From positions 1-64,000 of the IMG/VR virus record IMGVR_UViG_3300007171_000042: a stretch of 64,000 nt of DNA. One strand, 5' to 3'. Positions 6,555 to 28,388 of the stretch are shown one piece after another (within the stretch, counting starts at the first letter, position 1; each line of letters begins with the position of its first letter). The position numbers and the translations under genes are program-made. The stretch comes from an uncultured virus (IMG/VR IMGVR_UViG_3300007171_000042) (lineage: Duplodnaviria > Heunggongvirae > Uroviricota > Caudoviricetes). The notes under the pieces were generated by a model. That model saw only the letters and a program-made list of their open reading frames with translations, was not told the origin of the DNA and did not search any database.

Positions 6555-9500
6555 TTAACTTCTATCTAATCCTTCTTCATAGTCAGACAACTCTCTCTGT
6601 TGTTCTTTAAGCTGGACTTTTTCTTTTTGAAGATCATCTATTTGTGATTGTAAAGATTGTTTAGTTTCTTCATCATCTAAATAGTCTAACTGACGAGTCA
6701 TAGCTTTAATTTGTTTATTAATAGAAGATATGTCTCCTTTCGTTCCCTTTATCTCAGAATCTAATGTAGATATAAACCATCTTGGGTTTTTAGCTTCATA
6801 TTTCCTATAGATATACTCAGGTCCAGTAAAGTAATTTGTACTTACTGCAAGTCCAAACATTTTTTCTAATCTAGCAAAAAACTCCATCTGTCCCTGAAGT
6901 ACAGGATCAGGCTTATATCTTTTAGGATTTAAAATATTACCTGTTCTACTACGTTCAATATACTCATCAAACATATCTACATCATCTAATGGGTTAACAA
7001 ATTGATAAGCTAATTTAATAGACTCAAAAGCTCCCTGCAAAGGAAGAATAAAATTTTTCTCTAAATAAAATTGTCCTATATTCTTACCGTCTACATTATT
7101 CATCATACGAGAATAGACAATAGATCCTGTTCCAAAGACAGGATTCAACGTGTTTAATTCATCTTCGATTTGTAAAAGATTGTAAAGTAAAAAATAAGCT
7201 CCCCAGATATTTTCCTCATCGTCATCATCAGAGTATACTAAAGCATTTAAAGCAATTGCAATAGCAGTACTTACACTTAACACAAGCATGTCATAAACTG
7301 CTGCCATAGCTTCTGCTTTTTCTCTAGGACTCATTAAACTGTCTACAGCTGCAAAAGAAAATCTATTCTGCATGATTAACTTAAGAGCCTGTACCAAGGT
7401 TCTAAAGTACCCTTGTTGTTCCATACCTGCTCCATAGTTCATTCTTCTATTTCCAAATCTTCTAATAAACTGATAGGTAAACCATCCCTTCATGTAGCCA
7501 ACTAATCTTCCTATAGTATATCTACTATATTCTCCTTTATCCATTGCACCATACGCTCCATGAATAAGAGCATTTACTGCGTTTACTTTTTGCCTAAATG
7601 CAGATTCTACTCCACTAAATCCTTCTATGTCTTTAATATTTGGATCAGGTTTAATAACACCCTCTTCTACAATGTAAGCATCCATTATAGGCTTGAATGT
7701 TCCATCGGTCATCTCTACCATAAACTGCTTAGATAAAGATTCTGCTACCGCACTACGCATTTCAAATTCACCAAATGTCCTAGTAAAAGAAAGCATATAA
7801 AGAGGATTGTATTTTCTAACTCCTTTAGCTAAATCACTAACATATACTCTTTTACCTGATTCAGTTAAATGATCTTCAACCATAATATTGAAGTAACGCA
7901 TCTTCTGAATATAAGGAGAATCTATACCATCTTCTACATAAGATTTAAATAAATCGCCAATATGCTTAGCATTCTTTCCCATTGCTACAGTAACATCTTT
8001 TCGACTAACACCGTAAATCTTTAACTGTTCAAAGATGTTTATTGTACCAGCTCCAAAGTTTTTAATACTTGAAGGTAAACGTAAACTAAGTGCTAACTCT
8101 GCACCAATACCCAATCCCTTATCTAAAGCCCACTCAAATACCCTACCCGCTTTATTATTAATCATAGGCTTTCTAGACTTACCTTGTAACTTACGTTCAA
8201 ATAAGTTATTTACCATCTTTTGGATACGACTTCCAGGAATTTTTTCACTAAGAACATCTTGTATACCGTATAAATATGGAGCATTAGCGTAAGCTTTTCT
8301 AAACCTAATCAGATCAGTACCGTACATAGTTAAACTATTAATAAAGTTTACACTCATCTTGTCTGCCCCAATAGGAGTATTGTAACGTAAGAAAAGTCTT
8401 CTATTAACCTTTGTCACCATACTGCCTTCTTCGTCTCTAGACATATCTTCATCATTCTTAAAGGTCATATTATCCCATATGTTACTAGCTACGCCTTTTA
8501 TCTGAGAGCCAATAGTACCAAATTTCTTATTTCCTAAAGCCTCAAAGCCTTCTTTCATTACAGAAGGAAGTTCTAAACCTTTCTTAAGGTTTCTAGGAAC
8601 TCCTTTTTGCATCTCATTATACACCTCAAGTATTTCAGAAAGTAACTGTTTTTCTTCAGTACTTAATCTAGCGTACTCTGGATTTATATACTTAGTCTTT
8701 GTATTATCCAATGATACTCGTTTAGATTTCTTGTTCTGAGTAACGGTTTCTTTTCTAAAAACAGGATTAAGAGTAATAGTTTTCCATCTAAACGAGGGTT
8801 CATTAAAACTAATGTAGGACTTATCTGTAGGTTCAGTCGTCATCCAATAGGTTAGTGGTTCATCTTCTTCTATAAAGGTACCTGCAGCTTCAGAATAGTT
8901 ATAAACCTTTTTATGGTTCATCTTATACCATGTAGTATTTTTTAATGCCTCTACAGCATCCGAAGTTAGCAAACTACCATTTTGATCTCCTGCATACTTA
9001 GCAGAATTTTGAGCAGAAAGTTTGGCTCTTTGTTCAGCTAACTTAGTATTGTATACTTCAATATATGCAGGTGTATAGACTTTTTCTTGGATTGCAGAAA
9101 GCTCTTTATATAGATTACGAAGAGCTACACGATCTTCTCTGGATAGTTCAGGAGACTCCTCTTTAATAGTTTCTTTAACTTCTTCTAACTCTTTCTCTAA
9201 CTCTGCTATACGTATAGGAATATTTACTTCTCTAACAACACCATTCTCCTCTACAGTAACAGTCTCATTAGGAATTCTTGATCCATCATAAAGATTATCA
9301 TTATTCTTAAATCCTTTTAATAGGCTAAAAATCTCATCCCAGATCTCTGAAACAGTTCTCATGCCAGGAACATCTACTTTCTCTTGAATAGCAGAAATAG
9401 AATCTAAGATCTCTCTACGTTCTTCATAAAACTCTGGACTAATCTTTCTTACAGCATTATTGGCTCTCCAAACATCATAGTCTTTTTGGACTGCATTTAG

Positions 9501-12359
9501 TATAGCTTTTTTAGAATTTATAACCTCTTCAGGTTGTTTTGTTGCTACAGCATCTTCATACTCTAATTTAACTCTATCCAAAGAAGCTTTCTTTTTTGTT
9601 AGTTGTACATTAAATAAAGCTTTATTAGTTTCTGTTAGCTCATATTTGTATAACTCTGCAGCATTTTTCTCTTTTTTCCACTCTCTTATACTTGCAGCTA
9701 TACGTAAACCCTTTTCATCTTTAACTATACCGTTGATGTCGGTATCTGCCTCTAAACGTTCTAACTGAGACTTTAAGTCTTCTAACTTATCTAATTCATC
9801 CTCATTATTCTCTTCGTCTAAAGAAGATGCTTGAATCTTACGCATCTCCTCTATGATTTCTTCTCTAGCCTCCCTTGCTTCATCACTTAATAAGGATTGA
9901 ATACGATAGTATTCATCTATAAAAGGCTTCTCTTCAAACTCTTCTTGTAGATTAACTAACTCTCTTTCTTTTTTCTTTATCTCTTCTTTTATAATATCTG
10001 TTTGATTTTTTTGGTTTTTAAGTTGCTGGATAGCATGAATAAGAGTAATTCGATCGTTTTGATAAGCGATCTCATCCATCTCTGTATTAAAAACTAAAGT
10101 CTCTCTTTCTACTATCTCTCCCTTCTTAATTTCTTTAACTGTTACTTTACGGATGTATGGTCCAAAAGTATTTTGAAAATCTAAACCTGTAAGATTCCTA
10201 CCCCCTTTAGACTTTGTAATTTTTTCTAGCCTATCTCCTAATCCCCGCATTTTTCTTTCTAGTACAATAGATTCTGCGTTAGCTTCGTCATACATTTTAC
10301 TCAACATAGAACCCACAGTACCTGTAATAATATTACCTGTTAGTGCTGCAGATTCTGCATAAAGACTGAATAAATTAATATCTTTTAATTTGCCAGTAAA
10401 TGCTCTGGCAATATTTTCTTCTGTAGCCAATTCATTATACTTCTTGGTTTCCTCTGCTATTTTATTCTTAAGATTCTGAGCTAATGTATTATTACCTGAA
10501 GCAACTGCTGAATCATAAGATTTTTGAAACTGTTCTATATTCTGAGCAATAGTTGCTCGCATAGATTCTGTTTGAGGAGCAATCTCTCTAGCTAACTTCT
10601 CTGCAATAGCTTTAGTAGCTTTATTAAAGTAGTCTTGTGTAAGTGAGTTAGCTAAAGCTTCTATGTTTCTTATTTGAGTATTTAATACAGTGCCTGTACC
10701 AGTGTCTCCCATAATGTCTGTATACTCACGCATTACTTGCTTAAAGTGTTCACCTAACTCACGAGCATGGTATGCTTGTCTAAACATCTCCTCTTGAGTA
10801 TAGATACCACTTGCAGACATAGAATCCATAGATAATTGTAAAGATCTAAGATACTTAGCTGTATCATGAAAGTATGTAACTAGGGATCTAAAAGCCTCTT
10901 TAGCTTCTCCAATAGATATATTTTGCAGAGACTCTTCTGATTTATATAGCAAAGGCAAATTAATTTTTATACTATTCGCCTCCATAAAAATCTTTTTCCA
11001 GTCAATAATGTCTGAGTCTAGAAACCTAGTAAGATTTTTTTGGAATTCAGAATTTTTTAATAAGTACTCCTTAGCTTCTTCCATTTGCATAGTTGTCATC
11101 TCATAGTTAAATTTTTGTTTATCTAATGGATTACTTTTAGTATTTAAGTTGTTATTAAATACTACTTCTGCAAAATAATTATCTAACAATTCATCAAGTG
11201 CTTCTTGAGTTGGGGCAATCTTTTTATCTGGCTTAGTTAAACCTAGCTTACTTAGTATAAAGTCCCATATCTTTTCAAAAATATTTCTAGCATATTCTAC
11301 ATCATTTTTTTCTATAGAATCTCTAAAGGCAGGATTACTTAAGAATTCACTTACAAACTCAAACTCATCTGCTAAACCGTAATAATCTCCTACAGGAGCT
11401 TGTCCTTTATATTTAGTCTTATAATAAAGATAGGCCTCTCTTATACCTTCAACCAATTTTTTATCAGTAGCATTACTAGGAGACATCATAGCATGCACAG
11501 TAACAGAGTGGACTAACTCATGAATAAACAACTTCTTAAAAGAATCTATATCTAGAGCACCTAATGCTATAGGACTAAAACTTAGTTTACGATTGCTGGC
11601 ATCATATGTTGCAGGCCTAATAAGATAGTCACCATTGCGATCCCTCATAACTCCTGTATGCTCTACTCTAAAGTCCATACTGATGTTTGGATCTATATGA
11701 AGTACTCTAATTAGTTTTTTAAGTATCTCTCTCTGATATTGTGGAGTACTAGGATCATTAATAATTTTTGTAGCAGTATCAAAGATATCAGGATTAGTAA
11801 AGTCTAAGTATGGCTGAAGATGTTGTACGTTAGCTGACTCTAAAGCAGAGTTACTTCTAATCAACTCGTACTCTAAAGCCTCCGTCATCATTAACTTAAA
11901 CTCATTTTTTCCTGATGCAGGAGTCAATTTGTAAGTTCTTTGTGCACCAGGTAAATCGCTCTGTACAGGTTCTATTTGTAATGAGAAAGTAGAATAAGGC
12001 TGATTGTCTAGTACAAGTTGTTGTACATCAGTTAGATTATATTCTTTTTCTATATCTAAGTCTCTCTCCTCGTAAAATTTTTGTACATCCTTTACATAAG
12101 CAAGTTGTCTAGGAGGAAGTTGAATTCCCGCTAAACCTAAAAACTGTTCTATATCTGCTTCTGGATTATGAGCAGCAGTCATAGACGATTTAAGAGGTCC
12201 CCAAGAACGAGTACTTCCAACGTTATCATAAATAGCTTCTATAGTTTGTGCAATATAGTCGCTATCTAAATCTAATTGCGTTAATAGATATCCTAAAGTG
12301 GAAGCATGTCTTTCTCCTGATATAGGATTATTTACATGTATAATACAGCCTTTGCTCAT
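6555..12359 (-). CDS. Giant ejected virion protein (third gene of the crAss-like RNAP cluster) with zincin-like domain
   Basis: 1934 aa, helical/coiled-coil; HELVH (11508-11522) with downstream EFVSE; hydrophobic C-terminal helix MLVLSVSTAIAIALNALVY; adjacent to virion RNAP. Confidence 0.75.
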   Translation of the reverse strand: MSKGCIIHVNNPISGERHASTLGYLLTQLDLDSDYIAQTIEAIYDNVGSTRSWGPLKSSMTAAHNPEADIEQFLGLAGIQLPPRQLAYVKDVQKFYEERDLDIEKEYNLTDVQQLVLDNQPYSTFSLQIEPVQSDLPGAQRTYKLTPASGKNEFKLMMTEALEYELIRSNSALESANVQHLQPYLDFTNPDIFDTATKIINDPSTPQYQREILKKLIRVLHIDPNISMDFRVEHTGVMRDRNGDYLIRPATYDASNRKLSFSPIALGALDIDSFKKLFIHELVHSVTVHAMMSPSNATDKKLVEGIREAYLYYKTKYKGQAPVGDYYGLADEFEFVSEFLSNPAFRDSIEKNDVEYARNIFEKIWDFILSKLGLTKPDKKIAPTQEALDELLDNYFAEVVFNNNLNTKSNPLDKQKFNYEMTTMQMEEAKEYLLKNSEFQKNLTRFLDSDIIDWKKIFMEANSIKINLPLLYKSEESLQNISIGEAKEAFRSLVTYFHDTAKYLRSLQLSMDSMSASGIYTQEEMFRQAYHARELGEHFKQVMREYTDIMGDTGTGTVLNTQIRNIEALANSLTQDYFNKATKAIAEKLAREIAPQTESMRATIAQNIEQFQKSYDSAVASGNNTLAQNLKNKIAEETKKYNELATEENIARAFTGKLKDINLFSLYAESAALTGNIITGTVGSMLSKMYDEANAESIVLERKMRGLGDRLEKITKSKGGRNLTGLDFQNTFGPYIRKVTVKEIKKGEIVERETLVFNTEMDEIAYQNDRITLIHAIQQLKNQKNQTDIIKEEIKKKERELVNLQEEFEEKPFIDEYYRIQSLLSDEAREAREEIIEEMRKIQASSLDEENNEDELDKLEDLKSQLERLEADTDINGIVKDEKGLRIAASIREWKKEKNAAELYKYELTETNKALFNVQLTKKKASLDRVKLEYEDAVATKQPEEVINSKKAILNAVQKDYDVWRANNAVRKISPEFYEERREILDSISAIQEKVDVPGMRTVSEIWDEIFSLLKGFKNNDNLYDGSRIPNETVTVEENGVVREVNIPIRIAELEKELEEVKETIKEESPELSREDRVALRNLYKELSAIQEKVYTPAYIEVYNTKLAEQRAKLSAQNSAKYAGDQNGSLLTSDAVEALKNTTWYKMNHKKVYNYSEAAGTFIEEDEPLTYWMTTEPTDKSYISFNEPSFRWKTITLNPVFRKETVTQNKKSKRVSLDNTKTKYINPEYARLSTEEKQLLSEILEVYNEMQKGVPRNLKKGLELPSVMKEGFEALGNKKFGTIGSQIKGVASNIWDNMTFKNDEDMSRDEEGSMVTKVNRRLFLRYNTPIGADKMSVNFINSLTMYGTDLIRFRKAYANAPYLYGIQDVLSEKIPGSRIQKMVNNLFERKLQGKSRKPMINNKAGRVFEWALDKGLGIGAELALSLRLPSSIKNFGAGTINIFEQLKIYGVSRKDVTVAMGKNAKHIGDLFKSYVEDGIDSPYIQKMRYFNIMVEDHLTESGKRVYVSDLAKGVRKYNPLYMLSFTRTFGEFEMRSAVAESLSKQFMVEMTDGTFKPIMDAYIVEEGVIKPDPNIKDIEGFSGVESAFRQKVNAVNALIHGAYGAMDKGEYSRYTIGRLVGYMKGWFTYQFIRRFGNRRMNYGAGMEQQGYFRTLVQALKLIMQNRFSFAAVDSLMSPREKAEAMAAVYDMLVLSVSTAIAIALNALVYSDDDDEENIWGAYFLLYNLLQIEDELNTLNPVFGTGSIVYSRMMNNVDGKNIGQFYLEKNFILPLQGAFESIKLAYQFVNPLDDVDMFDEYIERSRTGNILNPKRYKPDPVLQGQMEFFARLEKMFGLAVSTNYFTGPEYIYRKYEAKNPRWFISTLDSEIKGTKGDISSINKQIKAMTRQLDYLDDEETKQSLQSQIDDLQKEKVQLKEQQRELSDYEEGLDRS

Positions 12360-12373
12360 TTTTACGTATGTTA

Positions 12374-12403
12374 CAAATATAATCTTTAATTAAAAATATC
12401 AAA
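12374..12403 (-). promoter_or_regulatory. Bacteroidota-type promoter
   Basis: TTTG (12400-12403), 18-nt spacer, TATATTTG (12374-12381) just upstream of the 1934-aa gene. Confidence 0.7.
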
Positions 12404-12416
12404 CTTTAAATATAAT

Positions 12417-15400
12417 CTAATCTTCTATGTTACACTTAGTCACTTCTGCATCTGTAGAACTTAGTGGCGTACTTTTTCCTGACTTACGTGCAACATTTAC
12501 ACCTGTAGATTCTCCTAAGTCAACAGGTCTATTACCTCTAGAACTATTTAAAATTCCTTGACTTCTGTAAGCTTCTTCATCGTCAAACTCTGGATCATCA
12601 TAAGTATTACCTTCTTCTAATGGAAGAACATCATCTTCATCAACCTCTTCTACGATTGCTACATCTCCCTTAAATTTATACTTAGGAAACACTCTATCCA
12701 GTTCTGATAGACCCTTTTGTTTAGATTGGGCATATGCTGCTTTAATGCCTTCTGTAAAGATAGTTAAAGCTTCTTCATCGTTAGAGTCAGAGTTATTATA
12801 AGAATACTTTAAACCTTTTAAAGTAACAGATAAACCTGCTGCTACATCAATATATCCTTTAATAGGAAGATATGGTTGTATACTTCTAAAACGAATATTA
12901 AATCCTTGTGATACTATAGTAGCACTAGCAACATCTGTAAAAAACTGAGACACTTGTGGATTAGGATGATTTAATCCATCCATGAATGCTTTTTGTACAG
13001 CATCTATAGCATCAGGATCTTTCTCATTTGTCTTCATAGCTACATAAAACATCTTTGAGTCTTTTACATCAATAGTATTAAAGTTAGCTAAAAATAAATT
13101 TTTGTTTGCAAACTGCATCAACTCAGGCTTACTACTATCCTTAAACAAAGTAATAAACTTAGACTTTAAGTTGTTGGGTTTATCCTTCTCTAAGAATCCA
13201 GAATCTCTTCCATATCTATTATACAAATCTCTACTATAGTCATCCCCAAATCTGCTAATAAGAATATGCATAAAATTATTAAGAATCTTATTAACCTCTC
13301 TAGTTGCCCTATCTCTGCTCCAATATTTATTTTCATCTAGTATTTTTTGTATTTGTTCCTGAACAGGAGCTAAAGCTAGAATATCGAAGACACTTCTAGA
13401 AATCTCTACTGCTTCTGATACAATGTTAAAGGGAGATACTACGCTATTAGAAAGAATTTTTTCGACTGCTTCTCCATTGAAATAATCAGACGCTGAATTA
13501 ATACCATAGGCTACAGAGAAAAAATCTGTAATATTTCTGTAGTTATTTGTATTAAAATCTATATTAGAAGTCAAATCATATAGTACATCTTGTTGATCCT
13601 TTACAGCAAGATACTGCGTTAAGAAGGCAACCTGTGCAGCCAACTTAGATTGAGCTTCTATGTTTCCAGTTTTAGCTTCTTCTAAAATAATATCGTATGC
13701 TTTCCTACTATTCTCTACATAAGGCGGATAATCATTTTCATTAAAACGTTCTATATGTCTCTTAAAGTAATCGTCTTCAAGTAACATTGTTACTGTATCT
13801 TGTAAGTTAATAACTGATTTTTTTCCTTTAGGAGTTTGGATTTCCTCCATAATAGGCGATACTCCAAGTACTTTTAAAGCCTCGATTACGTATTGTTTTT
13901 CAGATTTAGACTTTGATCCAAGTGTTCTTCCTATATGTCCAACAAAATTCTCTCTTAAGAAATGTTGAATAATAGGTTGATTCACTAAAAGAATAGCATC
14001 CTTAACTGGAGTACCATTTAAAACCATTTGTAGAATAAGAGGAGTCCGAACATTATCACCATTAAAATAGTTAATCCAGTCTTCTTTCTCAATGTCTACG
14101 TGACCATTAATAAACTCATTGATTACATCTGATATCAGATTGTCATTGTCAGCATCTATATATCCTCCTAGAATGATTTCTCCAGATGTTGTTCTGTTTG
14201 CCTTCATTCTATAGTTGTTTGTTATATTACCTGCCTTAAATCTTAATCCTACTTGTTGGAAAAGTTTATGTAATGCATTCATCTTAGCGTCCACACCCAA
14301 AGACTTTTTACCTAAAGTATTTTCTTTAAACAAAGCAACTGAGGTTAATGGAGAAAACATATCCGTAGAACTAATCTTACCTCCTTTATTTCGTAATGCT
14401 AAGTATTTAGCAGCTATCTCTGGTAAGATTTTATTAGAATTAGGTTTTGTAAATCTAGAGAATAGAGCAGGTTCAGATAATACACCAGAGATAACTTTAA
14501 TCATTCTATTAGAAGATACATTTTTAATATTGTTTGGAGTATAACCCTGCAATGTATCTAAGTCTTTGTTTATCTCTTTTAACTTAGCCAAAGTATCAGC
14601 TAATGAAGGATTTTCTTTTAATAGATGTTCTATACGTGCAATTAATAGTTTAATACGTAGGTGTGCACCTTCTACCAATGGATCATCGTAAGAGGCTTTT
14701 CTAGTAGATAAGTCATACAATACTCCTTTTAAGTTCTTAATGTCTTTCTCGTATAATCCTTTTATAAAGTAAGCACCTGTATTGTTTAAGAGTTCTTTGA
14801 TCTCTTTCTTATTTTGTAGATTAACAACTCGCTCTCTTATGTTGTTAAGCATGTTCTTTGTAAAGTCTGCAGAGTCTACAATAGAATCATCCATTATATT
14901 ACCTTCAGAGTCTAACATAGGCTCATACATAAACAACTTATCTATATCGAAGTCAGATCCAGACTTAGTAACAATTGAAGGAGGTACTACAATAACAGGA
15001 CCTGCACTTGTAGGTAAGAACTCTCTCACTCTAAAGTATTCCATAGAGTTAAATCCTTGTACGGGAATACGTACACCTGCCATAGTAATTTTTTCTGAAT
15101 GAAGTTCTACCCAGTTGTCATCTAAAAGTGCCTCATTTAACCTAGCAAGAGTTGCTATCCTCTGACCATTAAACTCTAAGTTTAATAAAGGTAAATGTTT
15201 TTTAGGATTAAAGGCAATCTTAATATCAGCAGGTTGGGTTTTACCATTCTCTACTCTGTAGTCCCTCAATCCTGAAGTTCCGTATTTACTAACGTCTTCC
15301 TTACTAGGTTTTTTAAATCTTGTTCCTAACTGATTAAATCCAGAAGAAGCTAATTGAATATAGGCTTCTCCAAACATCTTTGGTTTAAGCACACGTTTAG

Positions 15401-20259: not shown

Positions 20260-20267
20260 CAAATATA
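20260..20267 (-). promoter_or_regulatory. Bacteroidota-type -7 promoter element
   Basis: TATATTTG in the 62-nt gap upstream of the RNAP gene; -33 element not clearly matched. Confidence 0.55.
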
Positions 20268-20293
20268 ATACGTAACACTAAGATACTCTAAAA

Positions 20294-23200
20294 TTACAAC
20301 TTAGGTTTCTTTTTTATCTCTTTTAATTGTTTAGCACGATCTAATCCGGCACAATCTTCTTTTGCTTTTTTTGCTTGGTCTATATCATCTTGATCAAACA
20401 TCTCCCCTGCGTTTACACTGTTAAGTCTGTCTGCTAATGATTGCTTAGGAGGTGTAGATTGTTCTGAGGCAGCTAGTTCTGCATCGTAATCTTTGATAAA
20501 GTCTTCCAAAGTATAAGTCTGACCATACTTTTTACCCAACCTTACTTGTTCTGCTGATACAGTATTTTCTAAAGGAATAATACCATTAGCAGAGGATTTA
20601 TCTTTTTCAGAGTATTCTACTTTTTCAAAGTTTTCAATATCTTGAATCAAAGGTTTAGCAGCCAAACTAAGTAACAAGTCTTTTGGAGAGCCATACTTTT
20701 CATTTATATTTTTTAATTCATCTAGGCTAATAGACTGATAAGTACCTGTCTTATCATTAAATTTTGCTATTTCCCACCTGACATTGCCTTTTACATTAGT
20801 TATATAAAATGCGGCAAATTTTTGTTTCTTATAAGTAAATCTAAAATTAGACTCTTCTTGGTCGAATATTACATGAGTAATCTCTCCTTCATTAATTTCT
20901 ATAGGAGTAGCTAGTTTAGCACCAGCTATTTTTATAGCTTCAGACAAATTAGTTACTTCATTTCCTGGTTTAGGATTATCTATACCTGCTATTTTATTTT
21001 GAAGTTTATATTTTACAGATTCTCTAGAAGGTTTGGCATCATCCTTTTGTTTTCTTTTTTCAAAATCAGTCTTAGAAATCACAGTTTGAGTAGGAGCAGT
21101 AGGAATAACTGGAGCAGTATTTTGTTTAGGCATAGTTAATTGGATAGACTTTTTATCTATACCTCTTACTTCTAAATCATCGTTGCTTAACATCACTAGA
21201 GGAAAAGGCTTCTCTCTACCTGGTAATTGTATGCCTACAAAAATAAATATAGGATTACTATCAGTTGTATAAGGAACAATTCCGTAAGCACTTTTACTAG
21301 AGTCTGTGTACTCTATAGAGTTGTAGGTCACTTTGCCTGGATTATCATAGATAAATTGTACCAGTTGATCGTATAACTCTGGAGTAAGATTGTCATAAGC
21401 ACCTTTAAATAAACTGTTAAGTATTGGATTTTTTTCTACTACTTCTTTAAGTTTTGCATGTTGTACTAGGTGAAGATCTACTGCCTCAGGTTGATTTGTA
21501 CTAGTAGAAACACTAGGACTCGATACACTTGGTTGTACTTGAGGAGGAGTGGGCTGAGTTTTAGGAAGAACCTCGAGTACTTTTTTCTCAAATTCTTTTT
21601 GATCAGGATAAACTACTTTATTTATTGGTGTAATAAGTTCTCCCCCAGCTGTCACAGGAAAAGTATGTGTATCTTTTAGATAGTCAGAATAAGATTGTTT
21701 AGTTGTTACTATCTTACCATCGACCAAAGATACTCGTATCATAGGATCTCCATTTTGTAATATAGTACGATCTGCTTTATAAAAACTTTTCTTTAAGAAA
21801 TCCAAGAACTCTTCCTTGGTCAAAATCTTATTAACAGGTTTACCGTTTACATAGGTAGTCTGAACAACAGTAAGTGGGTACTCTACTGCTTCGGACTTAC
21901 TTGGATAATTATTATTAGGAAAAAAATGTACCCGATTCTTCTTATCTATAATGTTAATAAGACTAAACAAATACTTTTCTAATCCAGCCTGATCTACAAA
22001 GTCACTAGGAATTGTTTCAGAGAATATCATTTCTGCTATTGCCTCTGCCTCTTGCTCTTGTATATTAGTATTGCCTAGAATAACGGGATTACCATTGTTA
22101 TTAAAGTATATACGACCTAAGTTAAACTTAAAAGTCTTACCAAAAATTTCCTGACCTTCTGAGTCTGCAATCTCAAAGTCACTAGCATTAGATTGTGCAA
22201 TGGTTTCGTTTTCTATCTCAGCTGCTTTCTTTTGACTAGCGGATTTAGGTAATACTCCTTCAGACACACTAAACTCTGTATCAACAAAAGAATAAGGATT
22301 TTCAGTTAAAAATGTTCTTAACCTTTTTACATCCTGTAAAGTCTTACTATGTTCTTCTGGGAAAACTACATCTTTACCCTTAGAGACAAGTTTGGTTAAG
22401 TTTAATTGTAGAGGATACCCATCAAATAGAGATAAAGAACCTTCTTCTTGATTAGGAGCAGTAATCATAACAGCAGAGTTAACTGTGAATCCATCTCCTT
22501 TGTTAACTATAAAGTATCCCAAGGTAGACCTATCAAAGTATTCTTCTCCTAAAAGCTCGTGCATTGGGGCTAATATAGCATCTTGTTGTTCCCTAGTTAA
22601 AGCATTCCATTGTTCTATAGTCATAGAGTTATTCTCAAAAATTGACTCTATTCTACGAAAATCTTCATCTATTTGCTCTTCTGTTTTATCGGGATACTTC
22701 ATAGCTAGGAATACCATTGCTGTTCCTTTTCTACTCTGTATTCTAATTTGAGCACCTGGACCACCAAGTGACTCAATTGCTTTAGCATTTCTTACTTCTG
22801 CAGGATCTGTTCTTCGTACATCTTTACTGTCAAACTCTATTGCTGCACTCCTTAAGGGAGAATTTAATTCTAATAATCTTGCTTCTCTTCGAGCAAGTTG
22901 GGCATCTAAAGCTTTATTTTTAGTTTCTGTATTTAGATTTGCTGGCAAAGGATTTGCTACGGGTGTAGCAGCTACTACAGGTGCAGAAGCAGCAGTAGTA
23001 GGTAACTCTTCTCGTACAAATCTTTTAGCAAAGTATGATACAGCGTTCAATGAAGCAAGTTTATTTTCTGCTGTATCAGAGTTTGTTTTATTTCTTTTTC
23101 TAGCTGCAATATCTTTAGATATGATATCAGCCATACTAGCTATACTTTGTTCAAACTGAGAAATAGTAATACTCTTGTTAAAGAGACTATTTACAAGACC

Positions 23201-26200
23201 AACAATGTAGTCAAAGTCTCTTGTTCCTCTACCGAACTTTCTTGCTACTATATTAACTAAAAATTCTTTAAATTTATTTATATAATCTGTGGGATACTTT
23301 TTCTTATAGTCGCCTACTTGCTTAGCATATCCCTCTTTAAAAGTTAATTTAGTTTGAGATTTACCCGACTCATCTATAGGTTGGGTAGGAGAAGAAGTGG
23401 TAGAAGAAGCAGGAGTATTAGAGGGAGTAGAAGGAGTACTTGCAGTATTAACCATTGAAGAAAATTCTTCTACATCTGCATTTTCTTCGTCAGTTAATCC
23501 TTCTTCAGTTACAGGTTGACCAGCAATTTCCTGTGCTTTCATTTCCGATCTTCTTTGAATTAAAGCTTCTCTGGCTATATCTAATTCTTCTACAGTAAAT
23601 TTTATACCAGGAAATTGTTTATTTAAAGCTTCTACATTGTAAGCATACATTGCATTTTTAGGTGCAACATTGTCTAAGAAAACAGCTAATGCTGATTGGC
23701 GTTCTTCTGGAGTAGCAGTAAGAAGTTTTTCTAGAATCCGTACTTGACTTGCAGCTAAGTTTTCGTCTGCTGTAAGTGCCATCTCCTGATTAATAAAATC
23801 AGAATTATCTTCTATCTGATTACGAAGCTTAGTAATACCATAAAGATCCAAAGTATTTTCTAAGGTATCATAGTCTATATTCTCTATAGACTGTTCTAAA
23901 AAGTTTCTTCCAGATTCGTCCCTTTGATTTGTAAGTTGATCAAATCTTTCTCCATAAGCATCTAGCAAACGTTCTCTGTTTGCAATCTGTGCTTTATCCT
24001 TATAGTTTCCTTTAAGTTTAAGATAATCTAGATCTCTTTGTACATTTACTCTAGATTGTATAAGTTCCTGTGGATCCGTAATCTGATCAAGACTAGCTAT
24101 TTTTTCATCGTAGGCATTAGAAATAACTTTAGCTTTCTCTTCTTCAGATAAATTAGCATACTTTTCTATTCTCTTCTGGGTCTTTAAAATATCAGTAGTA
24201 ACCTTAGATAACTCAGCATCAATGTCTGCTTGAGTATATTCAAAGTCTTTCTCGCCTATAATTCCTTTTTCTTTTAAAAACTTTTCTTCTTCTGCTGTTA
24301 AATCTTTTTTATTTATTGTTTTTATGTTAGCTCTTCGGATAGCATAGTATTCTTTTGACAGATCTTTAATTTTTTTATCATTCTCTACGGTCAACTCTTC
24401 TTTATACAGACCCACAAGTTCTTTTCTAATCTCATCCATTCTAGCTCTTCCTTTAGAGTCTATTTTATCTGCAAGTTTTCTAGTTGCAAATATTTGCTTC
24501 TCTTGATCAGTTAGGGCATCGTAATTAATATCAACTAGTTCGTCAGCTCTTAGATGATTAATAAAATAGTTGTACTGTTCATCTTTGTCTTCTAACAATG
24601 TCTTAGCATCTCTAATGCTATCAAAACCAAACAAACCATTTAAAACAGCTGACTTCCTATTAACATCTAGTACAGCTTGAGCATATTGTTGGTCAGAAAT
24701 ACTACCTTTTTCATTAAGCTGTTTTAACTTAGCTTTAAATAGCTCTGGATTATTTGCTGCTTCCCAGTCTGCTTGATTCTGAACATGCGACTTATTACCT
24801 GCGGCATATCCTTGAAATCCAGTTGTAAACCCTGAGTAGATAGCGCCTGCTGCAAAAGACTCAACAAAAGTATCAAGCATACTCTCACCAGTTATTTCTG
24901 TTTTATCTCTACCTACAAACTCTTCAGGCATGAGTGTAGTCTCTAAAAAAGCATTTCCTAGTAATGAAAGCTCTTCTTCTAGTGCTTCTACTGCGTTTTG
25001 TTTAAGTCCAATAACTCCAAATTGTCCAGCAGAATTAAAGAAGTTTCTAGCATTGTCAGTAAACTTAAGTTCAATTCCTGCTGCTCGTTTTGCTGAAGTA
25101 GCTAGATCTGCTTGAAAAGGTTTAAACTTTAAAGCCCCAACGTCAGGGAATCCAATACCCTCAGTCAAACCTTCTACTGATGCTTTAGCTAGTGCTCTTT
25201 TAAAATAGTTGCCTCCCCACTTTTTTTCTTCTGCAATCATTGTAGGTAAGGTACCAGCAGTAACTGTTGCAAAAGTAGAGAGTCTATCAGCCATTCGAAG
25301 TTCTTTACCAAATGCAGATACTTTATTTAAGGTAGAATATCCTTCTGCTAACTTAGCAGCTGCATCAATACTTTTTGCAGCTCCTCCTACTACTCCTCCT
25401 ACCACAGATCCTACAGAAAGAATAGGTAACATTTGACTTATCATAGCAGCACCTGCCTCAGGTATTGCTCCAAAATTAAAACCAGTAGAACCATCTTCTT
25501 TCTCATACATAAACTGATTAGACATTACTGGCTTACCATCAGGTGTATAAGAAATTACTTCAGGAGCATACAATGCTTTCTTATAAATAGTTCCCTCAAA
25601 GTCACTCCTACTACTAAAGGCATTTGATAAATCTACTACTCCTGAAAGTAAAGAATTTGCAGTTCCTCCTCTGCCTTTTCCTCCTAATCTTTCATAATCA
25701 GGTTCGTATTTATTAACTCCATAAATCTTAGCGTTCTCTTTTTGGCGTTTGTCTAATAACTCTAGAGACTGTCTATAAGAAGTAATTAAACGATCATTCT
25801 CTTTGTTTACTGACTCATCTTTTGATTTAGGAGAGACTATAAGTTCTGTAAGTTTTGAACTAATTGCGGAACGTAAAGAACCAATAGTTTCGTTCTCTAA
25901 ATCATATTTAAAGTACTTCTTAGCAAGGTCATCAGGATTTTTAAGTGAATTTAAAGCTTGTTGTTGAAACTGTTTAGCTTCTGGTCCTTCTCGATAGAAG
26001 TCATTCCCTCTTGTGATAAAATTATCTTGTAACTTAGTCGTTAATAAGTCATCAAAAGCATTCTGAGCAACAGGAGAAGCTAGACTTTGTTTTAGCTTTT
26101 TGTTTAACTCATCCGGACTCCCGTAACTATTTAAAAGATTAACACCAAAAGATTTGTAATCAATCTCATTTATATGGGATTTAATATTAGTAACGAGATC

Positions 26201-26689
26201 AGATGGTGTTAACCACTTAGTAGACTCATTTAAATCTATATCTTTAGACTTAAGTAATTTGTCTTTACCCTCAACTACACCACGAGCTCTGCCATACCAG
26301 TTAAGTAAAGAGTCTCCCAACTCTGCAACATCAAACAAATACTTATTATCTTCTGCTTTTTCTCTAATTGATTCTAGCTCTTGATGAATAGCATTAATAG
26401 AATTTTTATCTCTTGCTCCTTCTATACGACTAAACATTGAAGCAGCAGACTTCTCTGCTAAAATTGGATTATCATAAGCCTGCATATACAGACTCTTTAA
26501 AGAATTTAATTTTAAGTTTCTATTTTCTTCTACTAATTTATTCTGATAGTTTTGATCAGCAATAGCGCCTTTGCGTAACGTAGTTTCAAAAGACTGTAAA
26601 CCTCTTTCAGAATTAAGTTGTCTATCTGCAGCTACAGTTAAGTCTTTTGTTCCATAGAAGGGATTAAATCCAAGATTACCAGATGGCAT
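20294..26689 (-). CDS. Giant ejected virion protein (first gene of the crAss-like RNAP cluster), possible membrane-channel former
   Basis: 2131 aa; Gly/Ala-rich hydrophobic segment AGAAMISQMLPILSVGSVVGGVVGGAA; Pro/Ser/Thr linkers; synteny with RNAP. Confidence 0.7.
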   Translation of the reverse strand: MPSGNLGFNPFYGTKDLTVAADRQLNSERGLQSFETTLRKGAIADQNYQNKLVEENRNLKLNSLKSLYMQAYDNPILAEKSAASMFSRIEGARDKNSINAIHQELESIREKAEDNKYLFDVAELGDSLLNWYGRARGVVEGKDKLLKSKDIDLNESTKWLTPSDLVTNIKSHINEIDYKSFGVNLLNSYGSPDELNKKLKQSLASPVAQNAFDDLLTTKLQDNFITRGNDFYREGPEAKQFQQQALNSLKNPDDLAKKYFKYDLENETIGSLRSAISSKLTELIVSPKSKDESVNKENDRLITSYRQSLELLDKRQKENAKIYGVNKYEPDYERLGGKGRGGTANSLLSGVVDLSNAFSSRSDFEGTIYKKALYAPEVISYTPDGKPVMSNQFMYEKEDGSTGFNFGAIPEAGAAMISQMLPILSVGSVVGGVVGGAAKSIDAAAKLAEGYSTLNKVSAFGKELRMADRLSTFATVTAGTLPTMIAEEKKWGGNYFKRALAKASVEGLTEGIGFPDVGALKFKPFQADLATSAKRAAGIELKFTDNARNFFNSAGQFGVIGLKQNAVEALEEELSLLGNAFLETTLMPEEFVGRDKTEITGESMLDTFVESFAAGAIYSGFTTGFQGYAAGNKSHVQNQADWEAANNPELFKAKLKQLNEKGSISDQQYAQAVLDVNRKSAVLNGLFGFDSIRDAKTLLEDKDEQYNYFINHLRADELVDINYDALTDQEKQIFATRKLADKIDSKGRARMDEIRKELVGLYKEELTVENDKKIKDLSKEYYAIRRANIKTINKKDLTAEEEKFLKEKGIIGEKDFEYTQADIDAELSKVTTDILKTQKRIEKYANLSEEEKAKVISNAYDEKIASLDQITDPQELIQSRVNVQRDLDYLKLKGNYKDKAQIANRERLLDAYGERFDQLTNQRDESGRNFLEQSIENIDYDTLENTLDLYGITKLRNQIEDNSDFINQEMALTADENLAASQVRILEKLLTATPEERQSALAVFLDNVAPKNAMYAYNVEALNKQFPGIKFTVEELDIAREALIQRRSEMKAQEIAGQPVTEEGLTDEENADVEEFSSMVNTASTPSTPSNTPASSTTSSPTQPIDESGKSQTKLTFKEGYAKQVGDYKKKYPTDYINKFKEFLVNIVARKFGRGTRDFDYIVGLVNSLFNKSITISQFEQSIASMADIISKDIAARKRNKTNSDTAENKLASLNAVSYFAKRFVREELPTTAASAPVVAATPVANPLPANLNTETKNKALDAQLARREARLLELNSPLRSAAIEFDSKDVRRTDPAEVRNAKAIESLGGPGAQIRIQSRKGTAMVFLAMKYPDKTEEQIDEDFRRIESIFENNSMTIEQWNALTREQQDAILAPMHELLGEEYFDRSTLGYFIVNKGDGFTVNSAVMITAPNQEEGSLSLFDGYPLQLNLTKLVSKGKDVVFPEEHSKTLQDVKRLRTFLTENPYSFVDTEFSVSEGVLPKSASQKKAAEIENETIAQSNASDFEIADSEGQEIFGKTFKFNLGRIYFNNNGNPVILGNTNIQEQEAEAIAEMIFSETIPSDFVDQAGLEKYLFSLINIIDKKNRVHFFPNNNYPSKSEAVEYPLTVVQTTYVNGKPVNKILTKEEFLDFLKKSFYKADRTILQNGDPMIRVSLVDGKIVTTKQSYSDYLKDTHTFPVTAGGELITPINKVVYPDQKEFEKKVLEVLPKTQPTPPQVQPSVSSPSVSTSTNQPEAVDLHLVQHAKLKEVVEKNPILNSLFKGAYDNLTPELYDQLVQFIYDNPGKVTYNSIEYTDSSKSAYGIVPYTTDSNPIFIFVGIQLPGREKPFPLVMLSNDDLEVRGIDKKSIQLTMPKQNTAPVIPTAPTQTVISKTDFEKRKQKDDAKPSRESVKYKLQNKIAGIDNPKPGNEVTNLSEAIKIAGAKLATPIEINEGEITHVIFDQEESNFRFTYKKQKFAAFYITNVKGNVRWEIAKFNDKTGTYQSISLDELKNINEKYGSPKDLLLSLAAKPLIQDIENFEKVEYSEKDKSSANGIIPLENTVSAEQVRLGKKYGQTYTLEDFIKDYDAELAASEQSTPPKQSLADRLNSVNAGEMFDQDDIDQAKKAKEDCAGLDRAKQLKEIKKKPKL

Positions 26690-28383: not shown

Positions 28384-28388
28384 AGTTT

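What the first reader, a model, noticed from the sequence alone, without database searches (positions are those of the whole stretch)
6555..26689. Giant ejected proteins carry only terminal cysteines, placed for a head-to-tail disulfide chain
Seen (manual scan of the translations): the three giant proteins total 6,669 aa and contain four Cys. The 2131-aa protein has one, 19 residues from its C-terminus (codon 20351-20353). The 2604-aa RNAP has two, Cys3 (20223-20225) and Cys2600 (12432-12434). The 1934-aa protein has one, Cys5 (12345-12347). In gene order this reads P1-C...C-P2-C...C-P3, with both free ends lacking Cys. The upstream 559-aa and 773-aa cargo proteins appear to have none. Established: crAss-like RNAP-cluster proteins are packaged in the virion and are thought to pass unfolded through the tail. 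Inference: the proteins may be linked into one ordered ~750-kDa chain by disulfides (or shared metal sites), fixing stoichiometry and ejection order and separating on reduction in the host cytoplasm. I do not know of a published description of this mechanism.
Basis: partly seen in the sequence, partly recalled or inferred. Interest (0 to 1): 0.85.

Follow-up and report, generated by a model that had tools for sequence, protein, structure and literature searches.

The report
Terminal cysteine pairs link crassvirus giants
In this crAss-like phage and its relatives, the huge proteins packed into the virus particle with its RNA polymerase have almost no cysteines except one at each end that faces the next protein, which suggests the separately made pieces are tied end to end, probably by disulfide bonds, into one long chain for injection into the host.

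Summary
The three giant proteins (2131, 2604 and 1934 aa) hold four Cys: Cys2113, Cys3 + Cys2600, and Cys5. About 83 would be expected at the window's background rate of 1.25%.

The pattern is conserved across Crassvirales:
- In related IMG/VR loci found through the RNAP catalytic core, 149 of 157 junctions between module proteins have a Cys at most 25 aa from the upstream C-terminus and a Cys at positions 2-7 downstream. The 8 exceptions have explanations.
- 53 of 57 control junctions have neither Cys.
- phi14:2 and crAss001 show the same pattern. In crAss001 the first giant lies on the opposite strand.
- Where two giants are fused, both junction Cys are absent.
- Where the module is split further, each extra piece has a Cys at both ends.
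- The break point shifts relative to a conserved HExxH domain, and the Cys pair moves with it.

The number of conserved Cys is therefore twice the number of junctions. This fits pairwise tethering, most simply by disulfides, into a head-to-tail chain. The bond itself is untested. A co-fold gave only weak support. Six literature searches found no description of this.

The parts
20294..26689 (-). First giant of the RNAP module (2131 aa). Its sole Cys is Cys2113 (codon 20351-20353), 18 residues from the C-terminus. It has no N-terminal Cys.
   Evidence: Residues 385-742 match the N-terminal part of fused first-giant+RNAP ORFs in L072 and L071 (E 1.5e-24 and 3e-18). In the alignment of the last 100 residues from 11 relatives, Cys is the only invariant column.
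20232..20293 (-). 62-nt intergenic gap between the first giant and the RNAP gene (junction 1)
   Evidence: In relatives the gap ranges from overlapping to 85 nt. In crAss001 the two genes lie on opposite strands, so the Cys pair does not depend on this DNA junction.
12417..20231 (-). Virion RNA polymerase (2604 aa). Its only Cys are Cys3 (20223-20225) and Cys2600 (12432-12434).
   Evidence: It matches phi14:2 gp077 by BLAST (E 3.7e-16). A profile of the catalytic region, built without phi14:2, hits PDB 6VR4 'DNA-dependent RNA polymerase' at E 4.7e-52.
19833..20231 (-). N-terminal head module of the RNAP (residues 1-133, starting MICPNL). Cys3 and Pro4 are invariant.
   Evidence: Alignment A3 has invariant M1, C3, P4, F15, L18, G23, A27, W31 and others. 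AlphaFold2 gives mean pLDDT 81.8 and pTM 0.72, ordered over residues 1-133. The same module sits at the N-terminus of the last giant in cr4_1, L071 and L072. Foldseek found no PDB match.
19569..19583 (-). HESFH (HExxH) motif at residues 217-221, inside a conserved domain (about residues 150-410) that serves as a landmark for where the module is split
   Evidence: One search gives the motif. One search shows that the homologous domain lies 660-800 aa after the junction in L036, L038, L047 and L064, inside the fusions at about 1900-2180, and before the junction in crAss001 gp47 (2135-2267 of 2341).
14940..14954 (-). DFDID catalytic motif of the RNAP (residues 1760-1764)
   Evidence: The D, D, I, D and K columns are invariant in alignments A1 and A4.
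12360..12416 (-). 57-nt intergenic gap between the RNAP and the last giant (junction 2)
6555..12359 (-). Last giant (1934 aa). Its sole Cys is Cys5 (12345-12347). It has a zincin-type HELVH motif at residues 280-284 (11508-11522) and no C-terminal Cys.
   Evidence: It is homologous to phi14:2 gp076 (E 4e-15) and crAss001 gp49 (E 1e-12).
26704..33409 (-). Upstream ORFs without Cys (559, 773 and 653 aa). They sit between the muzzle gene and the giants, where crAss001 has its cargo proteins gp45 and gp46. A 149-aa ORF (31002-31451) within this span has 2 Cys.
   Evidence: Only weak similarity was found: the 773-aa ORF to FpV4 gp30 (E 1.2e-10) and the 559-aa ORF to phi14:2 gp079 (E 0.009). Their identity as cargo is positional and inferred.

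Best explanation
The three genes encode the virion-packaged RNA polymerase module of a crassvirus. This is a 6-7 thousand residue 'polyprotein' that different lineages encode in 2 to 5 separate pieces.

As in other ejected phage proteins, Cys has been purged from the module. The exception is one Cys within a few residues of each terminus that abuts the next piece. In the particle, the Cys near the tail of one piece and the Cys near the head of the next form a pair, most likely a disulfide. The pair stands in for the missing peptide bond. The pieces then form one linear head-to-tail chain: first giant, then RNAP, then any small extra pieces, then last giant.

Because the Cys sit 0-4 residues from the C-end and 2-5 residues from the N-end in most lineages, each joint is barely wider than a single chain. 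The chain could therefore be threaded, partly unfolded, through the tail in a fixed order and in 1:1:1 proportion. It would fall apart when the host cytoplasm reduces the disulfides.

Shown here: the Cys pattern, its conservation, its link to junctions, its loss on fusion and its gain on splitting.

Inferred: the disulfide chemistry, the head-to-tail topology, and the role in packaging, ejection and release.
For: 1. Window. There are 4 Cys in 6,669 aa, all at junction-facing termini, against a background of 1.25%.

2. Unbiased survey. Loci were found through the RNAP catalytic core, not the termini.
- 149 of 157 junctions inside the module have both a Cys at most 25 aa from the upstream C-terminus and a Cys at positions 2-7 downstream. 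53 of 57 other co-oriented junctions in the same loci have neither.
- The 8 exceptions are one broken ORF (L006), one mis-set start (L026) and junctions next to inserted ORFs in L043, L048 and L058, three of them GIY-YIG homing endonucleases and one of unknown family.
- Of RNAP ORFs with a complete N-terminus, 62 of 70 have the N-terminal Cys. All 8 that lack it are 3884-4798-aa ORFs; N-terminal homology to the first giant was shown for five, one more is FpV4 gp32, and the last two share L072's N-terminus.
- Of RNAP ORFs with a complete C-terminus, 83 of 84 have a Cys in the last 8 residues.
- The loci form 58 clusters at 70% identity and 23 at 50%.
- The module proteins hold 354 Cys in 535,342 residues. 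314 are terminal and 40 internal (0.0075%).

3. Named phages.
- phi14:2: gp078 has Cys as its last residue, gp077 has Cys3 + Cys2179, gp076 has Cys3, and none has any other Cys.
- crAss001: gp47 has Cys2339 of 2341, gp50 has Cys5 and Cys2404 of 2412, gp49 has Cys5.
- cr85_1, IAS, LMMB, crAss002, cr4_1, cr115_1 and FpV4 are consistent.

4. Not a nucleotide artefact. In crAss001, IAS and cr85_1 the first giant is on the opposite strand from the RNAP. Both Cys codons are used: TGT 268 and TGC 49.

5. Both or neither.
- Fusions of first giant + RNAP (FpV4, L044, L071, L072, L074, L075, L087, L094, cr4_1) and of RNAP + last giant (LMMB, crAss002) lack the junction pair.
- Extra pieces of 169-583 aa carry exactly one Cys at each end (L017/18, L027-33, L036, L043, L048, L066).
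- The last giant has a Cys in its last 25 aa in 0 of 52 cases.

6. The split site moves relative to a conserved HExxH domain. It lies 195 aa before the domain in the window, 660-800 aa before it in four loci, is absent in fusions, and lies about 75 aa after it in crAss001. The Cys pair always flanks the split.

7. The same tail abuts the same head. The tail ...EFEV[TI]KCRED precedes the head MSKGC whether the tail is carried by the RNAP (L011) or by a 328-aa extra piece (L017). L023 and the window carry diverged forms of this tail and head.

8. Geometry. The N-terminal Cys is at position 3 (85 cases), 4 (39), 5 (26), 6 (7) or 7 (1). In 133 of 159 cases the C-terminal Cys is followed by 0-3 residues.

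9. Plausibility from papers (passages read).
- crAss001 virions contain inter-protein disulfides in the tail and portal vertex, and the cargo is proposed to pass partly unfolded (PMC10172136).
- Cys suppression in ejected proteins is known in Schitoviridae (PMC11445570).

10. Co-fold of the first giant's last 60 aa with RNAP residues 1-150: verdict 'weak support', score 0.48, best of 3 controls 0.00.
- The mark was reached by 116 of 157 solved complexes and 2 of 215 mismatched pairs.
- At 0.60 or under, it was reached by only 18 of those 157 solved complexes and by both mismatches that passed.
- The runs agree in at least 63% of contacts, and the partner's pLDDT is at least 53.
- My own alignments were used, so these counts hold only roughly.
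Against: - No bond has been observed. Everything here is comparative.
- Particles assemble in a reducing cytoplasm, so a disulfide could only form later. The termini would first have to meet non-covalently.
- Gut crassviruses live in anoxic habitats.
- In this window's clade the first giant's Cys is 8-21 residues from the end, not at the very end.
- cr273_1 has the head Cys3, but the nearest upstream Cys is 49 residues from the annotated end.
- crAss002 fits only if translation starts 32 codons after the annotated start.
- Gut phages keep several internal Cys, for example 8 in the LMMB fusion and 10 in the IAS RNAP. Free thiols are therefore tolerated there.
- The count of Cys alone cannot tell a linear chain from cyclised middle pieces plus a link between the first and last giant.
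- The co-fold pass is of the weak class, which the tool says is more often wrong than right unless the guess was likely beforehand.
- Many loci are related to one another, so the 157 junctions are not independent events.
Confidence: 0.55

Rival explanations
1. The disulfide chemistry is the same but the topology differs. Middle pieces (the RNAP and the small extra pieces) close on themselves through their own N- and C-terminal Cys. The first giant's C-terminal Cys bonds to the last giant's N-terminal Cys.
For: The Cys counts fit this as well as a linear chain for 2, 3, 4 or 5 pieces.
Against: - A cyclised 2,600-aa protein would have to pass the tail as a double strand.
- The tail ...EFEV[TI]KCRED stays next to the head MSKGC of the following gene whether the RNAP or a 328-aa piece carries it. 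L017, L011, L023 and the window all have MICPN-type RNAP heads.
- The MICPNL head module moves between the RNAP and the last giant in different lineages, and always sits directly after a Cys-bearing tail.
- The co-fold of the first giant's tail with the RNAP head gave a weak pass (0.48 against controls 0.00, with the caveats).
Confidence: 0.1
2. The junction Cys pair is bridged by a metal ion (Zn, Cu or Fe), with other ligands from the termini, rather than by a disulfide.
For: - Some heads have His near the Cys, such as MSKGCIIH and MARHCTLDFH.
- A metal site could form in the reducing cytoplasm during assembly.
Against: - Most heads and tails have no His or second Cys near the conserved Cys, for example MAC-K, MSC-K...NTIC and ...DPFKC.
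- Apart from M1, the Cys (and Pro4 in the MICPNL-type head) is the only invariant column near these termini.
- Two thiolates alone make a poor Zn site.
- The Cys number scales as 2, 4, 6 or 8 with the number of junctions, so there is no single shared 4-Cys centre.
Confidence: 0.1
3. Each terminal Cys acts on its own. It might tether that end to another virion component such as the portal, a cargo protein or the capsid interior. It might instead act as a redox or acylation site after ejection. The two Cys at a junction are not partners.
For: - Some non-module cargo proteins also have a lone terminal Cys with no obvious head partner: LMMB 861-aa Cys860, crAss002 557-aa Cys550 and FpV4 gp30 Cys5.
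- crAss001 tail proteins are rich in disulfides, and this window's tail proteins are Cys-rich.
Against: - This does not explain why the first piece's N-terminus and the last giant's C-terminus never carry a Cys (0 of 52 last giants; 3 of 34 first pieces are flagged, and all three are cases where the true first piece is cut off or lies further upstream).
- It does not explain why fusion removes both Cys together, or why each new split brings two.
- No one-sided junction remains once the broken ORF, the mis-set start and the inserted ORFs (three of them homing endonucleases) are set aside.
Confidence: 0.1
4. The N-terminal Cys is a 'cysteine switch' that caps the zinc of the nearby HExxH (zincin) domain and keeps a protease latent, as in matrix metalloproteinase pro-peptides. 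The C-terminal Cys of the preceding protein might do the same as a bound product.
For: In the window both head-bearing proteins have an HExxH within 300 residues of the Cys: HESFH at 217 and HELVH at 280.
Against: - The phi14:2 RNAP has Cys3 but no HExxH, and FpV4 gp33 has Cys3 but no HExxH.
- The distance from the Cys to the HExxH domain varies from 195 to about 800 residues. In crAss001 the domain lies on the other side of the junction.
- Small extra pieces of 169-209 aa carry both Cys, with no HExxH domain detected by Pfam.
Confidence: 0.03
5. The pattern has no protein-level function. It would be a by-product of start and stop codon context, translational coupling or annotation.
For: Most junctions are tight, with gaps from -11 to +90 nt.
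Against: - The pattern holds where the partner genes are on opposite strands and more than 10 kb apart.
- Both Cys codons are used.
- Cys positions and flanking residues vary, but the Cys itself is invariant in an otherwise variable tail.
- Control junctions lack the pattern.
Confidence: 0.02

Closest known systems
Virion RNAP module of crAss-like phages (phi14:2 gp66 with its two neighbours; crAss001 gp47, gp49 and gp50)
   Same: The window has the same gene block after the muzzle and cargo genes. It has the DFDID catalytic motif, homology to the solved phi14:2 RNAP, and a zincin motif in the last giant. The published model has the proteins packaged in the virion and ejected partly unfolded (PMC10172136 passages; preprint 10.1101/2020.03.07.982082 passages).
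   Different: In the texts I searched, neither paper mentions cysteines of these proteins. The preprint has 0 hits for cystein, Cys or disulfide. The Nature paper speaks of disulfides only for tail and portal-vertex proteins. The preprint suggests that fused polyproteins are 'likely cleaved'. The present reading is the reverse: split pieces are joined.
Cys-suppressed ejection proteins of Schitoviridae (N4 gp50, DEV gp71-73)
   Same: These are giant virion RNAPs and companion proteins ejected into a Gram-negative host, and they are almost free of Cys: 0.00075% against 0.865% for the proteomes (PMC11445570 passages). Here the figures are 0.06% against 1.25%.
   Different: There the RNAP is one polypeptide and has no Cys at all. 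Here the module is in pieces and keeps exactly one Cys at each abutting end.
Inter-protein disulfides that stabilise the crAss001 tail and portal vertex
   Same: Covalent Cys-Cys links between different virion proteins of a crassvirus have been seen by cryo-EM (PMC10172136 passages). This window's tail proteins are Cys-rich at 1.4-6%.
   Different: Those links hold a rigid, symmetric structure together. The pairs proposed here would join flexible, ejected cargo end to end and would be meant to break.
Polyvalent proteins of phages and conjugative elements (Iyer et al. 2017, PMC5512222)
   Same: These are giant multi-domain proteins delivered with the DNA. They often carry a zincin-like peptidase thought to cut them into units (passages). 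A 328-aa extra piece in relative L017 carries the Pfam domain ART-PolyVal (E 1.1e-10).
   Different: That concept joins domains by peptide bonds and separates them by proteolysis. The paper has 0 hits for cysteine or disulfide. Here the genes are separate and the joints would be redox-cleavable.
Split inteins and protein trans-splicing
   Same: Separately translated pieces of one protein become joined, and a Cys sits at the joint.
   Different: Only 0-4 residues (at most 21) follow the C-terminal Cys and only 2-5 precede the N-terminal Cys. There is no room for intein halves.

Membership tests
crAss-type virion RNA polymerase (phi14:2 gp66 family) | DxDxD (DFDxD) catalytic motif | tested here: met
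   DFDID at residues 1760-1764. These columns are invariant in A1 and A4.
crAss-type virion RNA polymerase (phi14:2 gp66 family) | Sequence homology to the solved phi14:2 enzyme | tested here: met
   BLASTP against phi14:2 gp077 gives 21.9% identity over 1013 aa, E 3.7e-16. Profile A4, built without phi14:2, hits 6VR4_A at E 4.7e-52. phmmer with the single sequence found nothing.
crAss-type virion RNA polymerase (phi14:2 gp66 family) | Two double-psi beta-barrels in one polypeptide | not tested
crAss-type virion RNA polymerase (phi14:2 gp66 family) | Packaged in the virion and ejected | not testable with these tools
   This is known for phi14:2 and crAss001 from papers. Here it is inferred from homology and gene position.
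Crassvirales | Crassvirus major capsid, muzzle and tail ring proteins in the conserved order | tested here: met
   Pfam hits, all above their cut-offs: Crass_capsid (48552-50078, E 1.6e-28), crAss_MUZ (34643-39739, E 2.7e-38), CrAss_Ring_1 and CrAss_Ring_2.
Cys-suppressed ejection proteins (Schitoviridae type) | Cys frequency far below that of the phage proteome | tested here: met
   4 Cys in 6,669 aa (0.06%) against 1.25%. In relatives, internal Cys are 0.0075% of 535,342 residues.
Cys-suppressed ejection proteins (Schitoviridae type) | Essentially complete absence of Cys, with none conserved | tested here: not met
   Terminal Cys are conserved in 149 of 157 junctions.
Disulfide-linked virion proteins | A Cys-Cys bond observed between the partners | not testable with these tools
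   The only result is a weak co-fold pass (0.48 against controls 0.00). No contacts were reported.
Polyvalent proteins (Iyer et al. 2017) | Giant multi-domain delivered protein with a zincin-like peptidase and effector domains | tested here: inconclusive
   HExxH motifs are present, but Pfam and PHROGs give no hit for the three giants. An ART-PolyVal domain was found in a relative's extra piece.
Cysteine-switch zincin pro-enzymes | The conserved Cys always accompanies an HExxH domain in the same protein | tested here: not met
   phi14:2 gp077 and FpV4 gp33 have Cys3 but no HExxH. In crAss001 the domain lies on the other side of the junction.
Split inteins | Intein halves (tens to about 100 residues) flanking the joint | tested here: not met
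   The overhangs are 0-4 residues (at most 21) and 2-5 residues.

The most novel reading that the evidence does not exclude
Crassviruses build a 0.6-0.9 MDa 'disulfide-stitched polyprotein'. Two to five separately translated pieces of the RNAP and effector module are joined end to end through near-terminal Cys pairs that stand in for peptide bonds. The chain is threaded through the tail as one string in a fixed order and is unzipped by the host's cytoplasmic reductants. Release of the pieces, and perhaps activation of the RNAP, would then be timed by redox state rather than by proteolysis. Any break in the reading frame can be healed by a Cys pair. That would explain why gene boundaries in this block drift so freely, and how new payload pieces such as an ADP-ribosyltransferase can be added to the chain.
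Probability: 0.4. Interest if true: 0.9.

Novelty: new variant of a known kind. Interest (0 to 1): 0.85.

Why it matters
Crassviruses are the most abundant phages of the human gut. How they pack, order and deliver several very large proteins, including the RNA polymerase that starts infection, is an open question raised by the crAss001 structure paper.

A rule that holds across the order, with one Cys pair per junction, none at the free ends, lost on fusion and gained on splitting, gives that question a concrete answer that can be tested on a gel or by mass spectrometry in two cultured phages.

The rule would also explain the puzzling variability of gene boundaries in this block. It gives a simple aid for annotating starts and module membership, as with the crAss002 start. 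It would add a new principle to phage protein delivery: a redox-cleavable covalent tether in place of a polyprotein plus protease.

Tried and rejected
- **PHROGs and Pfam on the three giants.** No family was found.
- **phmmer of the RNAP against PDB sequences.** No hit. A profile was needed.
- **Foldseek of the N-terminal head module model against PDB.** Best E was 1.4, so no match.
- **Motif covariation.** I tested a motif chosen after seeing the data: a tail 'C-x-G' before heads with 'C-P'. It occurred in 12 of 40 such junctions against 1 of 116 others (Fisher p 2e-7). With one junction per 70% cluster it was 8 of 24 against 1 of 76. The motif is post hoc and the loci are related, so I do not rely on it. 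DPFKC-type tails precede more than one head type.
- **Homology of the Cys-free 559- and 773-aa ORFs to crAss001 gp45 and gp46.** BLAST found none, only weak hits to FpV4 gp30 and phi14:2 gp079. Their cargo role is positional.
- **Cysteine-switch, intein, CaaX-like and nucleotide-signal readings.** All rejected for the reasons given under the rival explanations and the membership tests.
- **Literature.** Six full-text searches and term look-ups inside five papers found no description of terminal Cys in crassvirus cargo proteins.
- **Not seen.** The final Nature version of the phi14:2 RNAP paper, and the extended-data tables of PMC10172136 (I saw only their legends).

Full report
**1. The observation**

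The window carries, on the minus strand, three consecutive giant ORFs: 20294-26689 (2131 aa), 12417-20231 (2604 aa) and 6555-12359 (1934 aa).
- Cys2113 in the first protein (codon 20351-20353, 18 residues before the end).
- Cys3 (20223-20225) and Cys2600 (12432-12434, 4 residues before the end) in the second.
- Cys5 (12345-12347) in the third.

The 559-aa and 773-aa ORFs upstream have no Cys. The 653-aa ORF also has none.

The other ORFs of the window hold 132 Cys in 10,596 residues (1.25%). About 83 Cys would therefore be expected in 6,669 aa, and 4 are seen. The tail genes are Cys-rich (1.4-6%).

**2. What the genes are**

Pfam places the window in a crassvirus. It finds the Crass_capsid major capsid protein (48552-50078), the crAss_MUZ muzzle protein (34643-39739), ring proteins 1 and 2, and a P22-like portal below the cut-off.

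The giants have no Pfam or PHROGs hit. Other evidence identifies them:
- The 2604-aa protein has DFDID at residue 1760 and matches the phi14:2 RNAP (gp077 in GenBank numbering) at E 3.7e-16.
- A profile of its catalytic region, built from the window and 33 IMG/VR relatives without phi14:2, hits PDB 6VR4 'DNA-dependent RNA polymerase' at E 4.7e-52.
- The last giant has a zincin HELVH motif and is homologous to phi14:2 gp076 and crAss001 gp49.
- The first giant is homologous to the N-terminal part of long fused ORFs in relatives.

The block is thus the virion RNAP module described for phi14:2 and crAss001. In crAss001 it comprises gp47, gp49 and gp50, which are found in virions and are proposed to be ejected partly unfolded (passages of PMC10172136).

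**3. Conservation**

A first scan of IMG/VR with the RNAP gave 12 loci at 42-100% identity. All kept the pattern.

I then built an alignment of the catalytic core only (A1), so that the search could not favour any terminus. It returned 80 more loci at 23-63% identity. Scripts then walked the plus-strand ORFs around each RNAP.

Junction counts (L001, L013, L014, L016, L019 and L022 were left out, and L008, L010 and L012 were never entered):
- Inside the module, 149 of 157 junctions have a Cys in the last 25 residues upstream and a Cys at positions 2-7 downstream.
- Among the other co-oriented junctions in the same loci, 53 of 57 have neither.

The eight exceptions have explanations:
- An RNAP ORF broken relative to its close relative (L006).
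- A start set too early by my first-ATG rule (L026).
- Junctions next to inserted ORFs in L043, L048 and L058. Three of these ORFs are GIY-YIG homing endonucleases above Pfam's cut-off. The fourth, a 217-aa ORF in L058, has no Pfam match.
- One of the two control junctions with both Cys (L066) turned out to be a further split of the first giant.

RNAP termini:
- 62 of 70 RNAP ORFs with a complete N-terminus have the N-terminal Cys.
- 83 of 84 RNAP ORFs with a complete C-terminus have a Cys in the last 8 residues.

Other figures:
- The loci fall into 58 clusters at 70% identity of the catalytic region and 23 at 50%.
- The module proteins total 535,342 residues with 354 Cys. Of these, 314 are terminal and 40 internal (0.0075%).
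- The last giant never has a Cys in its last 25 residues (0 of 52).

**4. Named phages**

- phi14:2: gp078 (1797 aa) has one Cys, its last residue. gp077 (the RNAP, 2180 aa) has Cys3 and Cys2179 only. gp076 has Cys3 only.
- crAss001: gp47 has only Cys2339 of 2341. gp50 (DFDVD) has Cys5, Cys1334 and Cys2404 of 2412. gp49 has only Cys5.
- cr85_1, IAS, LMMB, cr4_1, cr115_1 and FpV4 also fit.
- crAss002 fits if translation starts at Met33 of the annotated protein, which gives MSC....
- cr273_1 is a partial exception. Its head has Cys3, but the nearest upstream Cys is 49 residues from the annotated end.
- Gut phages keep more internal Cys than the environmental ones.

**5. The pattern belongs to the junction, not to a gene, a domain or the DNA**

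(a) In crAss001, IAS and cr85_1 the first giant lies on the opposite strand from the RNAP, yet it keeps its C-terminal Cys and the RNAP keeps its N-terminal Cys. Both Cys codons occur. A nucleotide or coupling signal is excluded.

(b) The 8 RNAP ORFs that lack an N-terminal Cys are 3884-4798 aa long. For five of them (L044, L071, L072, L087, L094) the N-terminal parts are shown to be homologous to the first giant. A sixth is FpV4 gp32. L074 and L075 share L072's N-terminus. None has a Cys anywhere in the first 2,700 residues or so. In Suoliviridae the same fusion occurs (cr4_1; cr115_1 by size and motif positions). In Intestiviridae the RNAP is fused to the last giant. No terminal Cys pair marks these fused joints: the environmental fusions have no Cys anywhere in the N-terminal ~2,700 residues, while the gut fusions carry scattered internal Cys that I did not map against the junction-equivalent position.

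(c) Where the module has extra pieces, each piece has one Cys near each end:
- 169-209 aa in L027-L033 and L066.
- 328 aa in L017/18.
- 396 aa in L048.
- 506 aa in L043.
- 583 aa in L036.

(d) A conserved HExxH domain (window RNAP residues about 150-410) serves as a landmark. The break lies about 195 residues before it here, and 660-800 residues before it in L036, L038, L047 and L064. There is no break in the fusions. In crAss001 the break lies about 75 residues after the domain. The Cys pair always flanks the break.

(e) L011 has a 3853-aa RNAP ending ...EFEVTKCRED before the head MSKGC. Its relative L017 has a 2845-aa RNAP ending in Cys, then a 328-aa piece that begins MIC and ends ...EFEVIKCRED before the same head.

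The number of conserved Cys is thus twice the number of junctions (2, 4, 6 or 8). This argues for pairwise action and against a single shared metal centre.

**6. Anatomy of the joint**

The N-terminal Cys sits at position 3 (85 cases), 4 (39), 5 (26), 6 (7) or 7 (1). The C-terminal Cys is followed by 0-3 residues in 133 of 159 cases, and by 21 at most.

In the first giant's otherwise variable, acidic tail, the Cys is the only invariant column.

The RNAP head is a conserved module with invariant M1, C3, P4, F15, L18, G23, A27, W31 and other positions. It folds with confidence (pLDDT 81.8, pTM 0.72, residues 1-133) and has no PDB match by Foldseek. The same module heads the last giant in cr4_1, L071 and L072.

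A co-fold of this head with the first giant's last 60 residues received the verdict 'weak support':
- The score was 0.48 and the best of 3 controls was 0.00.
- The mark was reached by 116 of 157 solved complexes and 2 of 215 mismatches.
- At 0.60 or below it was reached by only 18 of the 157 solved complexes and by both mismatches that passed.
- The runs agree in at least 63% of contacts, and the partner's pLDDT is at least 53.
- My own alignments were used, so these counts hold only roughly.

**7. Mechanism**

The best-supported reading is that tail and head Cys form an inter-protein link, most simply a disulfide. The link turns the pieces into one linear chain.

Supporting knowledge from papers:
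- Cys is purged from ejected proteins of N4-like phages, and one proposal is that this avoids periplasmic disulfide catalysts (PMC11445570).
- crAss001 virions do contain inter-protein disulfides (PMC10172136).
- The order of cargo extrusion is thought to depend on packing and mutual interactions.

These points remain inferences:
- That the link forms after assembly.
- That it fixes 1:1:1 stoichiometry and ejection order.
- That it keeps the subunits together at very low copy number.
- That it is reduced in the cytoplasm.

The rivals are another disulfide topology, metal bridging, independent anchoring of each end, a cysteine switch, and no function. They are weighed in their own sections.

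**8. Novelty**

Cys suppression in ejected proteins and disulfide-stabilised crassvirus tails are known. I found no description of conserved terminal Cys pairs at the junctions of the RNAP module.

This rests on six full-text searches and on term look-ups in the crAss001 structure paper, the phi14:2 RNAP preprint, the Yutin 2021 genomics paper and the polyvalent-protein paper. The last three have 0 hits for 'cysteine'. The crAss001 structure paper had 0 hits for 'cystein' and speaks of disulfides only for tail and portal-vertex proteins.

I did not see the final journal version of the phi14:2 paper, or the extended-data tables of the crAss001 paper.

**9. Verdict**

Both interest and testability are high.

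Noticed in passing
window 34640-45388 (minus strand): The tail genes are Cys-rich. These include the muzzle, ring proteins 1 and 2, and the small ORFs at 43740-44905. They run at 1.4-6% Cys, against 0% in the neighbouring capsid-side ORFs at 47530-51244. This is in line with the disulfide-stabilised tail reported for crAss001.
   Followed up: no
L017:15274-16257: The 328-aa extra piece between the RNAP and the last giant, with Cys3 and Cys325, carries the Pfam domain ART-PolyVal (ADP-ribosyltransferase of polyvalent proteins) at E 1.1e-10, above the cut-off. The chain seems able to take on effector payloads.
   Followed up: partly
L043:10024-10638; L048:16132-16722; L058:12361-13047: GIY-YIG homing endonuclease genes sit exactly between two Cys-flanked pieces of the module. 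Such insertions may be one way in which the module becomes split.
   Followed up: partly
L098 (crAss002, NC_055828) 11938-12040: The annotated start of the 4245-aa RNAP fusion gives MVLDYS..., with the first Cys at position 35. Met33 gives MSCTPSNPK, which matches the Cys3 rule and LMMB's MSCGN. The start is probably annotated 32 codons too early.
   Followed up: partly
L097 682-3267 (LMMB 861 aa); L098 1243-2916 (crAss002 557 aa); L014 6597-8393 (FpV4 gp30): Cargo-position proteins outside the giant module also have a single near-terminal Cys: Cys860 of 861, Cys550 of 557, and Cys5 of 598. There is no matching Cys in the adjacent gene. Their partner is unknown. Self-pairing is possible.
   Followed up: no
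L006:1476-9995 compared with L011:10001-21562: The RNAP ORF of L006 stops at 2513 aa. A separate 285-aa ORF carries the usual C-terminal tail and has no head Cys. This looks like a frameshift or assembly error rather than a true split.
   Followed up: partly
L011:10001-21562: The RNAP of L011 is 3853 aa. It has about 1,200 residues between the conserved core and the conserved 22-residue tail that L017 and L023 lack. This is a hypervariable C-terminal region.
   Followed up: no
L015, L101, L102 (cr4_1, cr115_1, cr273_1): The annotated CDSs contain many in-frame stops under table 11: 4-80 per CDS counted in cr115_1 and cr273_1, and several visible in the cr4_1 translations. These phages appear to use a reassigned stop codon. 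Gut crassviruses also keep more internal Cys in the module than environmental ones.
   Followed up: no
window 31002-31451 and 34249-34629: Small ORFs match DUF6321 (E 2.3e-10) and DUF5856 (E 1.7e-21). Their function is unknown.
   Followed up: no
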